From assembly GCA_965287045.1 (NCBI GenBank), contig OZ336876.1, forward strand, positions 38,502,001 to 38,566,000: 64,000 nt of DNA. Direction: 5' to 3'. A program made the position numbers and the translations under genes. The stretch comes from Carcharhinus amblyrhynchos. Its lineage: Eukaryota. The notes beneath the pieces were generated by a model. It was not told the origin of the DNA and did no database searches. It saw only the letters and a program-made list of their open reading frames with translations. Positions 11,201 through 22,674 of the stretch are shown one piece after another. Positions within the stretch are counted from its first letter, which is position 1. Each line of letters opens with the position of its first letter.

Positions 11201-11879
11201 GGCCATAGTAACTCTCATTTCTTTCTTGAGAATACACAATATGTGAAATAACTCTTATGAACATTTATGCCAGAAAACCTGGGAAGCTTAACGTTAAGTA
11301 TTACATCTCTGATGGTTGCAAACTTAAGATGCAAACATTATCTTTAATAATCTGTGCCTGGGGTGTGGGGGGGTAAGAGATTTATTACATGCACCTGTAA
11401 CTCCTAAATATACCAGGAATTATGCTACATCTGTATGACTTTGGGAGGGAGGGAGAGAGAGAGAGCAGAAAGAATGCAGTTGCCTGTGGCTCTCTTCCTG
11501 CTGCCTACATTCCTGAGTGTGTTGCGCAAGGCTGTCCTCAGCATTCACCTCCTCTATGAATAACTATGAATAAAGAGACGCAGCTGCTCAGGATCAGGTT
11601 GCCGAGCCGGCTCACCCAGTCCCACTCCTTCCGCCGCTTCATTGAATACCAAAGTAGCAAGAAAATAGAGCGCGTGCGGGGGTTGGGGGGGCTTGCATCA
11701 ATCATTATCCTTGCAAGAAAATAAAATCCAAGAGTATCGGGAAAGGGTGGGAGGAATTTATTTTTTTTCAGCATGACTCTGAAGGGAAGGGGGAATCTTA
11801 TGGTAACTGGGTGCAACTGAATGCACTCCAATACTCAGGAGAGGGCTACACACAGAAGGTGCGGAGGGATATCACCTAC

Positions 11880-12120
11880 TTAACCCAGTGAGCGGGCGAG
11901 CGCAGCCTAATTTGATGGGCGGCGGTGACGCACACGCCTGATTGACGGCGGCTTCGTCCAATGGACGACGGCCACACGGCTGATTGGCGGCCACACTGCC
12001 CAATGGGCGGCGGATCCCAGGGCGATTGACGGTCACGCCGCCCAATGGGTGGTGGCCGCCCCCCTCCGGTGATTGACAGGCTGCTGGCGCCGAGGGGGCG
12101 GGCCATTGACTTATCAGGTT
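11880..12120 (+). promoter_or_regulatory. CpG-rich TRIB2 proximal promoter with repeated TGATTG(A/G)C(G/A)G and CCAAT boxes
   Basis: Sharp CpG/GC enrichment against the AT-rich background. TGATTGACGG at 11939, TGATTGGCGG at 11981, CGATTGACGG at 12023, TGATTGACAG at 12070. CCAAT at 11958, 12000 and 12042. GC box GGGGGCGGG near 12094. Confidence 0.8.
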
Positions 12121-13392
12121 AGTGTGCGGCGCAGGGGAGCCGCAGTCAGCGGCTGTGGTGAATGGGAGTCAGTGTGCGTTGGTGCTGCTGACATTATTCA
12201 CATTGCAGCCACGTAACTCCACACATATACACACCAGGCAGTGGAAAGATGATGATGGCTCATGTCGGCTGTTGCTGAAAGGGGATCGGCCCCGTTCTAA
12301 CGGCCATCCCTTCACCTAGGAGCAAAAAGAGAAAAAGGCTGCTGCAGATATTTTTTATTTTCTTTTGTTTTTCAATTTTTTTGTTTTTGTTCTCTCTCTC
12401 TCCCCGCCGGCTTTTTCGTGTTTGCAAAGCTCCAAACAAAAAAAAATTGTGCATCCCAAGGTCGTCATCTCAACAACTGTGCAATTTGCAAAAGGCATCT
12501 CTGGGAGTTTGAAAGTCATCGCTGTGTGTTTGGAACCTAGGCTTGGAGGAATTAAGACTTTGCACGGTGGGAACACGATACGGTTGATCTCTTTTGTCCT
12601 TGACTGTTACTTTTTGTAAAGAAATTTTTATATATATATATATCCACATGCATATATGCTCGCCAAAAAAAATCGGAAAGTGCTCGCCAGCCAAAGACTT
12701 TCTCAATGAGTGCAAAATAAATCTCCTTGTTGAAGTTGCACTTGGACGTTGCAGAGCAGATGACGAGAGGGTGAATGCCAGACTTCTTGTTTGATGATAG
12801 TTTGAGGCTATTTTGTTTCGGCTGCACAGGAGAGAGGGGGAGAGACGGCGGCGACAGAGGGGAGCGGACGCCACCTAGAGTCAAGAGGGTGAGGAAGCGG
12901 AGTGAGTTCCCTTGTCCCTCGCCACCTGGCTGGCTGGCTTGTGTGCAAAGCGCCTCGGCCACTTTGCTCTCGGTACCCGCACGTAACCCGCAAGAACAAA
13001 AAGCATTGTGATCTGGAGTTCTCTTCGACAACATCAGTGGTTGCCTTGGACTCTTCTGTACTCTGGAAGCTGCATTTATTTATACATATATATACACACA
13101 CATATATATGACTTCCTCCCAACAATCTATGCAAAAAACTGTAGCAATAAACAACGTTCTGCATTATCACTCCAAATGGTGCTTATTTTGAATTACTCTT
13201 GCTGGGGGAACAATTAATATAACTGGACCCCACAAGTGTAGACCAAAGTGCAAGAGAAAAGGGAGGGGGAAAGGCTCCAAACTGTTTTCTGGAGTAAACA
13301 GAACTCACTGAATTGTTTAATACAAACGTGAACGCTTTGAAAGTGAAGCCTTTTTTTCTTATTTTATAAAGAGGACTACTATTTACAGCCCC
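12120..13392 (+). other. TRIB2: Probable long 5' UTR of TRIB2 with multiple upstream ORFs
   Basis: Repeat-free stretch between the promoter and the ATG. ATG-initiated uORFs at 12162-12191, 12249-12278, 12262-12300, 12648-12794, 12656-12709, 12775-13011, 13108-13191 and 13176-13217. The TSS is inferred, not observed. Confidence 0.6.
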
Positions 13393-13665
13393 ATGAGCAT
13401 ACAGAGATCCAGTCCAATCAGCATTGTGAGGTATGGACGATCGAGGCACAAGGCTCACCACGAATATGAAGAATTATCTTGTGTGAGGACTAGTGACTGC
13501 AGCCAGAGTTTCAGCCCGAACCTCGGCTCCCCCAGCCCACCTGAAACCCCCAACTCGTGTCATTGCATTTCTCAAATCGGACAGTATCTATTGTTGGAGC
13601 CTTTGGAGGGGGACCACGTTTTCGGGGCTGTGCATCTGCATAGCGGCGAGGAGCTCGTTTGCAAG
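13393..13665 (+). CDS. TRIB2: Tribbles pseudokinase 2, coding exon 1 (aa 1-91)
   Basis: ATG at 13393. Translation [18 protein letters not shown]...[18 protein letters not shown]...[26 protein letters not shown] matches the TRIB2 N-terminus as I recall it. Donor AAG|GTAAC at 13665/13666, phase 0. Confidence 0.97.
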
Positions 13666-14069
13666 GTAACAGAAAATAAGCTTTTCCAGTAGCTTATCCA
13701 GTAAAGCGCCATTTGATTCCGAATTAGGTGGCGTGTGTGCACACAATACACCAGAGGCAAACGAATGAAAGTGCAACCTCTTTTGTTGATCGTGGGGGTG
13801 GGGGGTACGCTTAGCAGTTGGATCCATGAAACTGAGTACATTTTTGTAATTTAATCGTGACTTTTTGGTTTTCTTTTCGTTGGGTAACGCAATTTCAGAA
13901 GGGGTTATCTATTGAAACTTTTTTAAGTTGCACCATAAAGATCTGCAAGATGTGGGCCATTGTGTCTAACTGATGAATATGCTGGACCACCTTACCCGAT
14001 TGCTTCCCGGTGCATTGGTATAGGAAAGAGAGGGTGCCGAAATTCACTTTTTTTGTTTTGCTTCCGCAG

Positions 14070-14362
14070 GTATTCGATGTTGGTCGATATCAAGAAACAT
14101 TAGCAGCCTATTTTTATCTCTCTGCGCATGAAAGCATCAACCAGATAACTGAAATTCTTCTAGGGGAGCAGCGATCGTATGTTTTTTTTGAGAAGAGTCA
14201 TGGGGATATGCATTCATTTGTTCGCACTTGCAAGAGGCTCAAAGAGGATGAAGCAGCGCGATTATTCTATCAGATAACGTCTGCTGTAGCACACTGCCAT
14301 GACAATGGCGTGGTACTGCGAGATCTCAAACTGAGGAAATTTGTATTTAAAGACGAGGAACG
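14070..14362 (+). CDS. TRIB2: Tribbles pseudokinase 2, coding exon 2
   Basis: Polypyrimidine tract plus CCGCAG acceptor (AG at 14068-14069). Encodes VFDVGRYQE...[11 protein letters not shown]...[16 protein letters not shown], including the Tribbles catalytic-loop motif. Donor CG|GTAAG, 293 nt, phase 2. Confidence 0.97.
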
Positions 14363-22199: not shown

Positions 22200-22674
22200 G
22201 ACTCGAGTAAAGCTGGAAAGCTTGGAGGATGCTTGCATCTTGAATGGTGAAGTTGATGCTCTCTCAGACAAGCACGGGTGCCCAGCTTACGTGAGCCCCG
22301 AGATCCTTAACACCAATGGCAGCTACTCTGGTAAGGCAGCTGATGTTTGGAGTCTAGGTGTAATGCTGTACACAATGCTTGTTGGACGGTACCCTTTCCA
22401 TGATGTGGAACCAAGTTCACTCTTTAGTAAGATTCGACGTGGCCAGTTTAACATTCCAGAAACTCTTTCCCCACGGGCGAAATGCCTTATCCGTAGCATT
22501 TTGCGTCGAGAGCCTTTGGAAAGGCTGACGTCCCGGGAAATCTTGGACCATCCCTGGTTTGCCTCTGATTTTGCAGCTTCTAGTTCCGGATATGGTGCTA
22601 ATGAAAAAGAAGCAATCGATCAGCTGGTACCTGATGTGAATATGGATGTTGAATTGGACCCATTTTTCAACTGA
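22200..22674 (+). CDS. TRIB2: Tribbles pseudokinase 2, coding exon 3 (to stop)
   Basis: TTGCAG acceptor (AG at 22198-22199), and CG+G restores Arg in frame. Encodes [10 protein letters not shown] (SLE in place of DFG), [17 protein letters not shown] (MEK-binding motif), DQLVPD (COP1-binding motif) and ends LDPFFN-TGA. Total CDS 1041 nt. Confidence 0.97.

What the first reader, a model, noticed from the sequence alone, without database searches (positions are those of the whole stretch)
11939..12079. Phased 42-bp TALE-decamer + CCAAT array in the TRIB2 promoter
Seen: (T/C)GATTG(A/G)CGG starts at 11939, 11981 and 12023, and CCAAT starts at 11958, 12000 and 12042. Both have an exact 42-bp period (about 4 helical turns) and a fixed 19-bp offset, while the spacer sequences differ. 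A perfect TGATTGACAG follows at 12070. Established: TGATTGACAG is the PBX-PREP/MEIS decamer, and decamer+CCAAT composites recruit TALE factors with NF-Y. TRIB2 is described as a MEIS1/PBX-responsive gene in mammalian leukaemia. Inference: conserved spacing with diverged spacers suggests selection on geometry, i.e. a multimeric TALE/NF-Y platform rather than a neutral tandem repeat.
Basis: partly seen in the sequence, partly recalled or inferred. Interest (0 to 1): 0.7.

Follow-up and report, generated by a model that had tools for sequence, protein, structure and literature searches.

The report
Close-packed TALE/NF-Y array at TRIB2 promoter
Upstream of this vertebrate's TRIB2 gene lie three copies, 42 bases apart, of a known two-part site for the PBX/PREP and NF-Y proteins; four related organisms keep the sites and their spacing while the DNA between them drifts, and 40-43 bases is the tightest spacing seen between such sites elsewhere in the genome, so this is likely a working, close-packed promoter element of a known kind.

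Summary
In detail: three decamer+CCAAT units at 11939, 11981 and 12023 (3 in the window, 0.08 expected), 1.45 kb before the TRIB2 ATG. Each unit has the geometry of the published DECA-CCAAT element (GAnnGAC-11 bp-CCAAT; PBX/PREP, NF-Y, Sp2); the unit occurs 677 times in this genome against 17 for the reversed control. In four related organisms motifs vary at 4/45 sites, spacers at 19/63 (p=0.009), with no indel. Around 128 independent units genome-wide, CCAAT-to-CCAAT distances are phased at about 10.3 bp; second units never lie closer than 40 bp (0/39; 6 at 40-43), and three other loci carry three-unit chains. So 42 bp is the known four-turn CCAAT spacing, likely the closest that leaves room for a TALE dimer. 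Corrections: spacers keep similarity between units (old duplication); the one perfect decamer (12070) is half a turn out of phase and lacks a CCAAT; unit 2's decamer is degraded here. The mouse Trib2 promoter has an NF-YB peak, missing from the Sp2-knockout list. Binding and phase dependence are untested. The scan earlier noted a 53-bp array of this kind at UBL5 in another genome. New member of a known kind.

The parts
11939..11962 (+). DECA-CCAAT unit 1: TGATTGACGG (11939-11948), 9-bp spacer, CCAAT (11958-11962)
   Evidence: GAnnGAC-11bp-CCAAT met; decamer unchanged in organisms A-D; first C of CCAAT reads T in organism B only (one contig, depth 2)
11981..12004 (+). DECA-CCAAT unit 2: TGATTGGCGG (GAC core broken; also a CCAAT box on the minus strand), CCAAT (12000-12004)
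   Evidence: 11987 is A (consensus) in organisms B, C, D and G here and in A
12023..12046 (+). DECA-CCAAT unit 3: CGATTGACGG, CCAAT (12042-12046)
   Evidence: 12023 is T (consensus) in all four other organisms
11931..12048 (+). Degenerate 42-bp tandem repeat that holds the three units (2.8 copies, 75% matches)
   Evidence: autocorrelation; residual spacer identity
12070..12079 (+). Perfect TALE decamer TGATTGACAG, 47 bp after unit 3, no CCAAT at +19; outside the phased array
   Evidence: 0 of 10 sites vary in the organisms that cover it (A, B, C by X7, D)
12093..12103 (+). GC box (GGGCGG at 12096), likely Sp1/Sp3 site
   Evidence: role inferred from the consensus GGGCGGG given in PMC4368557
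11500..12500 (.). CpG-rich, strongly conserved promoter-like region; start site not mapped
   Evidence: CpG obs/exp 0.72-0.76, GC up to 0.59; flanks 11845-11938 and 12080-12220 vary at 9 of 235 sites
13393..13665 (+). TRIB2 coding exon 1 (ATG at 13393, GT donor at 13666)
14070..14362 (+). TRIB2 coding exon 2
   Evidence: AG/GT borders
22200..22674 (+). TRIB2 coding exon 3

Best explanation
The stretch is three head-to-tail copies of the known DECA-CCAAT composite site upstream of TRIB2, likely born by an old tandem duplication and likely kept by selection, each predicted to bind a PBX/PREP dimer and an NF-Y trimer, probably bridged by Sp2. The 19-bp offset inside a unit is the published 11-bp DECA-CCAAT rule (shown in sequence). 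The 42-bp period puts successive CCAAT boxes four helical turns apart, one of the published in-phase CCAAT spacings (31, 41, 52, 63). Three turns would lay the upstream NF-Y over the next decamer, so four turns is inferred to be the closest in-phase packing of whole units: NF-Y contacts reach about +17 from its first C, leaving some 6 bp before the next decamer at +23. The inferred result is a row of NF-Y bends on one face of the DNA with TALE dimers between them, holding the CpG-island promoter open and making TRIB2 output sensitive to PBX/PREP levels. Shown: motifs, spacing, conservation pattern, genome-wide spacing rule. Inferred: occupancy in this species, Sp2, cooperativity between units, effect on transcription.
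For: Unit geometry equals GAnnGAC-11bp-CCAAT (preprint 10.64898/2026.02.16.706105). Genome-wide 677 matches vs 17 reversed control; offset 19 holds 36 of the first 100 listed of 1230 matches, the other 19 offsets 1-8 each. Motifs vary at 4/45 sites, spacers at 19/63 (Fisher p=0.009); organisms C and D have three consensus units; no indel in 11939-12046 in A, B, C, D. At 128 de-duplicated unit loci elsewhere (148 used): 179 same-strand CCAAT neighbours phased at 10.3 bp (R 0.37, jitter p=0.0005); upstream 0 at 30-34 bp and 18 at 40-43; downstream 17 and 17; six control pentamers give 0-2 at 40-43 against 35. Second units within 130 bp: 0 of 39 under 40 bp, 6 at 40-43, 0 at 44-50 (p=0.0002 for phase). 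Independent search: CCAAT-to-next-decamer distance peaks at 21-24 with mode 23 (43 of 74; 17 of 74 at 23, corrected p=9e-5). Three-unit chains at 40-43 bp at L143, L160, L161. Mouse: NF-YB peak at chr12:15816443-15817401 in wild-type fibroblasts, no row at those coordinates in the Sp2-knockout list; the peak is labelled Gm5432, which starts 126 bp from Trib2's 5' end, head to head.
Against: No binding or expression data for this species; start site not mapped. In this genome unit 2's decamer has lost its GAC core and unit 3's first base departs from consensus, so selection on all three TALE sites is not strict; organism B shows a broken CCAAT in unit 1 (depth 2, may be an error). Zero indels is expected by chance with P 0.06-0.33 (assumed ratios), and the flanks 11764-12058 have none either. 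Only 7 of 35 in-phase CCAAT neighbours carry a decamer, so the phase rule needs no TALE repeat. The one perfect decamer is out of phase. The mouse peak is modest (row 2437) and appears for NF-YB only, not in the NF-YA, NF-YC or Flag-Sp2 lists; absence from the knockout list may be a threshold effect. The mouse sequence was not seen. The four organisms are close (about 94-98% identity here), of unknown relationship, so deep conservation is untested; the two paralogous genes have no unit within about 45 kb upstream.
Confidence: 0.72

Rival explanations
1. One functional DECA-CCAAT unit was duplicated in tandem; the copies add up independently and the 42-bp period is a frozen accident of the duplication, not under selection.
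For: TRF repeat call; residual spacer identity 33/69, p=0.007; lack of indels not significant alone; degraded decamers in this genome.
Against: The same 40-43-bp spacing is preferred at unrelated loci, most of them with low spacer identity between units (0-4 of 9 in 10 of 14 pairs), and none of 39 second units lies under 40 bp. An accidental period would fall in this 4-bp class only some of the time.
Confidence: 0.14
2. It is in effect an NF-Y array (three in-phase CCAAT boxes); the decamer-like sequences are weak or, as in unit 2, have become a reverse CCAAT box, and the real TALE input is the single perfect decamer at 12070.
For: CCAAT phasing without decamers is common (28 of 35 neighbours) and published; unit 2 reads CCAAT on the minus strand; the 12070 decamer is invariant.
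Against: Organisms C and D keep three consensus decamers while their spacers differ at many sites; the decamers sit at the exact 11-bp offset that is 40-fold enriched over control; the ACGG variant is itself enriched at that offset (143 vs 9).
Confidence: 0.09
3. A neutral GC-rich minisatellite or mobile-element remnant whose motif matches are chance.
For: Tandem-repeat structure; dispersed repeat families in this genome do carry the same unit (9-member cluster).
Against: Single copy in the genome (that search skips common words); motif sites vary far less than spacers; flanks are highly conserved; copy number is the same in four other organisms.
Confidence: 0.05

Closest known systems
DECA-CCAAT composite element bound by PBX/PREP, NF-Y and Sp2 (bioRxiv 10.64898/2026.02.16.706105; Ladam 2018 PMC6023610; bioRxiv 10.1101/720102; Ronzio 2020 PMC7793273)
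   Same: Same motifs, order, strand and 11-bp gap in all three units; promoter-like CpG island. Several units in one promoter are known: the mouse Sp2 promoter has five CCAAT boxes, three with a DECA.
   Different: Three units at one exact 42-bp period; decamers end in ACGG/GCGG rather than ACAG; the passages read give no rule for unit-to-unit distance ('tandem' and 'periodic' occur 0 times in the preprint).
In-phase CCAAT direct repeats of human promoters (Haubrock 2016 PMC4982600: 31, 41, 52, 63 bp) and tandem CCAAT boxes 30-50 bp apart at Sp2 sites (Voelkel 2015 PMC4368557)
   Same: 42 bp is the four-turn class; the same 10-11-bp series appears in this genome.
   Different: Those papers treat CCAAT pairs without TALE sites ('PBX' occurs 0 times in PMC4982600) and find 31 bp dominant; upstream of a DECA-CCAAT unit the 31-bp class is empty here and 40-43 is the first peak.
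TRIB2 as a Meis1/Pbx3-dependent gene in mouse leukaemia models (review PMC11702054)
   Same: Same gene; TALE-type sites at its upstream region would fit.
   Different: The review passages name no cis-element and do not mention NF-Y; the composite is described as PREP/Sp2-type; the mammalian sequence was not examined.

Membership tests
DECA-CCAAT composite element | GAnnGAC core of the decamer | tested here: met
   Units 1 and 3 here; all three units in organisms B, C, D. Unit 2 fails here and in organism A.
DECA-CCAAT composite element | CCAAT on the same strand, 11 bp after GAC | tested here: met
   All three units; rule; genome-wide peak at the same offset. The decamer at 12070 does not meet it.
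DECA-CCAAT composite element | Motifs conserved across species with fixed spacing | tested here: met
   4/45 vs 19/63 variable sites, no indel, four close relatives only.
DECA-CCAAT composite element | Location at a promoter or enhancer | tested here: inconclusive
   CpG island 1.45 kb before the ATG; start site not mapped.
DECA-CCAAT composite element | Occupancy by PBX/PREP, NF-Y and Sp2 in cells | not testable with these tools
   Only indirect: NF-YB peak at the mouse Trib2/Gm5432 promoter, none in NF-YA, NF-YC or Flag-Sp2 lists.
DECA-CCAAT composite element | Sp2 with SP-box and NF-YA-binding motif encoded in this genome | not tested
   No search made.
In-phase CCAAT direct repeats | Same-strand CCAAT boxes a whole number of turns apart (31, 41, 52, 63) | tested here: met
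   42 and 42 bp; genome-wide period 10.3 bp; published series.
MEIS/PBX/HOX-responsive element of leukaemia models | MEIS1/PBX3 binding at the orthologous mammalian sequence | not testable with these tools
   No cis-element found in papers searched; mammalian sequence not available.
Dispersed repeat or mobile element | Copies elsewhere in the genome | tested here: not met
   One match, itself; the search skips very common words.

The most novel reading that the evidence does not exclude
DECA-CCAAT units obey a second-order packing rule: NF-Y boxes stay on one helical face, the TALE dimer excludes the usual 31-bp spacing, and 40-43 bp is the close-packed repeat at which alternating TALE/NF-Y/Sp2 complexes polymerise cooperatively. 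The TRIB2 array would be a natural, conserved trimer of that lattice and the direct cis-element through which TALE dosage sets TRIB2 levels across jawed vertebrates.
Probability: 0.25. Interest if true: 0.65.

Novelty: new member of a known kind. Interest (0 to 1): 0.4.

Why it matters
The unit and the CCAAT phasing are each known. What this locus adds is a clean natural test piece for how several TALE/NF-Y/Sp2 complexes pack on DNA, and a genome-wide spacing pattern (no unit closer than 40 bp; 31-bp class empty upstream of a unit) that the searches made here did not find in print and that existing human, mouse and zebrafish ChIP data could test at once. It also offers a candidate cis-element for the reported TALE dependence of TRIB2, a leukaemia-linked pseudokinase, and shows the composite is abundant in this lineage (677 exact matches).

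Tried and rejected
Start-site mapping: no RNA holder was listed; two small runs, X13 (RNA is a guess) and X14 (kind not on record), gave no contig on the promoter or leader, so no start site and no statement on expression. Neutral divergence of the four organisms could not be measured, since contigs did not cover 12400-13450. More distant species (rays, chimaera, teleosts, tetrapods) could not be aligned. A fourth unit upstream (11897) or at 12065/12070 is absent. A 21-bp half period was considered: lags 19, 20 and 23 reach 0.34-0.39, lag 21 only 0.24; rejected as overlap between motif flanks. Gene conversion homogenising the units: spacer identity is similar in all five organisms (41-46 of 81), no support. 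trib2 is not named in the 7 supplementary files of PMC6023610 held as text; those files may not list peaks by gene, so no inference. Searches that found nothing: 'TRIB2 promoter' + 'NF-Y' (0 papers); CCAAT boxes + periodicity + helical turn + spacing (0); Trib2 + Meis1 + ChIP + binding site + Prep1 (1 paper, listing only). Not held, so unread: Garcia-Cuellar 2015, Stanney 2020 (journal version), Voelkel 2018, Reijns 2015. Preprint supplements were closed and could hold spacing analyses. The scan's earlier notes held no look-alike stretch and no TRIB2 note.

Full report
Observation. The pattern YGATTGRCRG-N9-CCAAT, with one mismatch allowed, has these three matches in 64 kb and no others; 0.08 are expected and none of 100 shuffles reaches three (the pattern was drawn from the sites). 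The region is CpG-rich (obs/exp 0.72-0.76) and single copy. The gene is TRIB2: three coding exons at 13393-13665, 14070-14362 and 22200-22674, the last scoring 251.8 bits against TRIB2 and 227.9 against TRIB1. The array lies 1.35-1.45 kb before the ATG; the start site was not mapped. The genome is 2.9 Gb; that it is a shark is my impression, not tested.

Tandem Repeats Finder calls 11931-12048 a 42-bp repeat with 2.8 copies and 75% matches. Spacer identity between units is 41/81, or 33/69 without the four bases after CCAAT (shuffle p=0.0007 and 0.007), so an old duplication is the likely origin. The perfect decamer at 12070 lies 47 bp after unit 3 and has no CCAAT at +19; it is half a turn out of phase. 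Unit 2's decamer lacks the GAC core and reads as a CCAAT box on the minus strand.

The unit is a known element. The preprint 10.64898/2026.02.16.706105 (parts 1, 2, 5 and 6 of 7 read, plus passages) gives the rule GAnnGAC-11bp-CCAAT for PBX/PREP and NF-Y, bridged by Sp2, with gel-shift support, and notes five CCAAT boxes, three with a DECA, in the mouse Sp2 promoter. Passages of PMC6023610 and 10.1101/720102 describe the same composite at zebrafish genome activation; passages of PMC7793273 give the 11-bp bias for PBX/PKNOX1 and say it is hardly evident for MEIS2. All three units here have that gap. In this genome GATTGACRG-N9-CCAAT occurs 677 times against 17 for the reversed pattern, the ACGG variant 143 against 9. 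Among the first 100 listed of 1230 matches with gaps of 1-20, 36 have this offset and the other 19 offsets have 1-8 each.

Conservation. Public runs of four other coded organisms cover the array (A X5, B X6, C X7 and X8, D X12), at about 94-98% identity over the laid pieces. Pooling them, 4 of 45 motif sites vary, 19 of 63 spacer sites (Fisher p=0.009) and 9 of 235 flank sites. Two of the four motif differences (11987, 12023) are places where this genome departs from consensus: C and D have three consensus units. The other two are in B alone, from one contig of depth 2. One spacer site (12040) rests on a single low-depth contig. No indel falls in 11939-12046; with 22 distinct spacer changes that has probability 0.06-0.33 under indel ratios I assumed, so it is weak alone. 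One low-depth contig of C shows a 2-bp deletion at 12059, between the array and the fourth decamer. The organisms' relationships are unknown and sites were counted, not events on a tree.

Is 42 special? First test: CCAATSR-N{4,18}-YGATTGACRG has 216 matches against 41 for the control. Of the first 100 listed, 74 remained after dropping this locus and collapsing a 24-copy family and two local pairs; 43 have the decamer 21-24 bp after the CCAAT, 17 at exactly 23, which is period 42 (corrected p=9e-5). Second test: I took 148 loci around units listed (first 100 of 677 and first 100 of 143, leaving out this locus and most members of two local families) and collapsed them by flank similarity to 128. 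Their 179 same-strand CCAAT neighbours at 25-130 bp are phased with period 10.3 bp (R 0.37; p=0.0005 against jittered distances). Downstream there are 17 at 30-34 bp and 17 at 40-43; upstream 0 and 18. Six control pentamers give 0-2 at 40-43 against 35. Of 39 second units within 130 bp, none is closer than 40, six are at 40-43 and none at 44-50 (phase p=0.0002). Three of the 128 loci carry three-unit chains at 40-43 bp when two decamer mismatches are allowed, none with one. Against a TALE-specific reading: only 7 of the 35 in-phase neighbours have their own decamer, and opposite-strand boxes show weaker phasing too (R 0.24, n=71).

What is already in print on spacing. Passages of PMC4982600 report CCAAT direct repeats in human promoters at 31, 41, 52 and 63 bp and put NF-Y contacts from -7 to +17. 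Passages of PMC4368557 report tandem CCAAT boxes 30-50 bp apart at about 40% of Sp2-specific sites. So helical phasing is known. From those contact limits I infer that a CCAAT 31 bp upstream of a unit's own CCAAT would overlap the decamer, while 42 bp leaves about 6 bp. That matches the empty 30-34 class upstream. Searches did not turn up this packing rule; subscription papers and preprint supplements were not searchable.

Mammalian link. Review passages (PMC11702054) confirm TRIB2 as a Meis1 target that depends on Pbx3/Meis1 dimers, with no cis-element named. In supplementary table S3 of PMC4368557 (searched by term; the file is cut within sheet 14) 'Trib2' never appears, but an NF-YB peak in wild-type fibroblasts lies at chr12:15816443-15817401, labelled Gm5432, with an Sp1 peak at the same place. 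A table in PMC3850781 places Gm5432 head to head with Trib2, 126 bp apart (other assembly). No row at those coordinates appears in the NF-YA, NF-YC, Flag-Sp2 or Sp2-knockout NF-YB lists. This fits an Sp2-helped NF-Y site at mouse Trib2, but it is one modest peak and the mouse sequence was not seen. The two TRIB paralogues of this genome have no unit in 50 kb each, about 45 kb of it upstream of exon 1.

Mechanism. Likely: one DECA-CCAAT unit was duplicated at a spacing that keeps NF-Y boxes on one face and leaves room for PBX/PREP; selection kept motifs and spacing while spacers drifted; the row of NF-Y and TALE complexes, probably with Sp2, keeps the CpG-island promoter open and ties TRIB2 output to TALE levels. 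Shown are the motifs, their conservation and the genome-wide spacing. Occupancy, Sp2, cooperativity between units and effect on transcription are inferred.

Verdict. Real and probably functional, but a further example of a described element with a described spacing. The modest addition is the apparent minimum packing distance of whole units, which is directly testable. Interest 0.4.

Noticed in passing
window 11949-12041 (spacers): Spacer sites vary at 19 of 63 across four organisms while the flanks vary at 9 of 235. Either the whole flanking promoter is under strong constraint or the DNA between bound factors mutates unusually fast; neutral divergence could not be measured.
   Followed up: partly
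window 11981-11990: In this genome and organism A one base change turns the middle decamer into a CCAAT box on the minus strand, too close to its neighbours for simultaneous NF-Y binding by the 24-bp minimum given in PMC4982600; a possible TALE-to-NF-Y site switch.
   Followed up: partly
G000 C9:90.4-96.1 Mb (L126, L127): At least 24 near-identical copies of a CCAAT-22bp-decamer link, many followed by the +19 CCAAT (period 41); L126 holds a C2H2 zinc-finger frame nearby. Probably the shared promoter of a zinc-finger gene cluster.
   Followed up: partly
L006, L010, L018, L019, L026, L027, L090, L093, L102: A dispersed repeat family carries DECA-CCAAT units and extra CCAAT boxes; not classified.
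   Followed up: no
G000 C39:0.56-10.5 Mb (L172-L175): Sixteen listed units with similar spacers on one small contig; the four fetched share flanks. Gene family unknown.
   Followed up: no
L143, L145, L160, L161, L056: Other two- and three-unit arrays at 40-43 bp; L143 and L145 show high identity between units, suggesting younger duplications. Their genes were not identified.
   Followed up: partly
L002-L177 set: Units with the ACGG decamer more often have a second unit within 130 bp (19 of 59) than ACAG units (9 of 69), as if weaker sites are compensated by number; the two sets come from different chromosome ranges.
   Followed up: no
window 12300-13390: About 1.1 kb of AT-rich, repeat-containing sequence between the conserved promoter and the ATG, with several upstream ATGs; likely a long 5' leader.
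   Followed up: no
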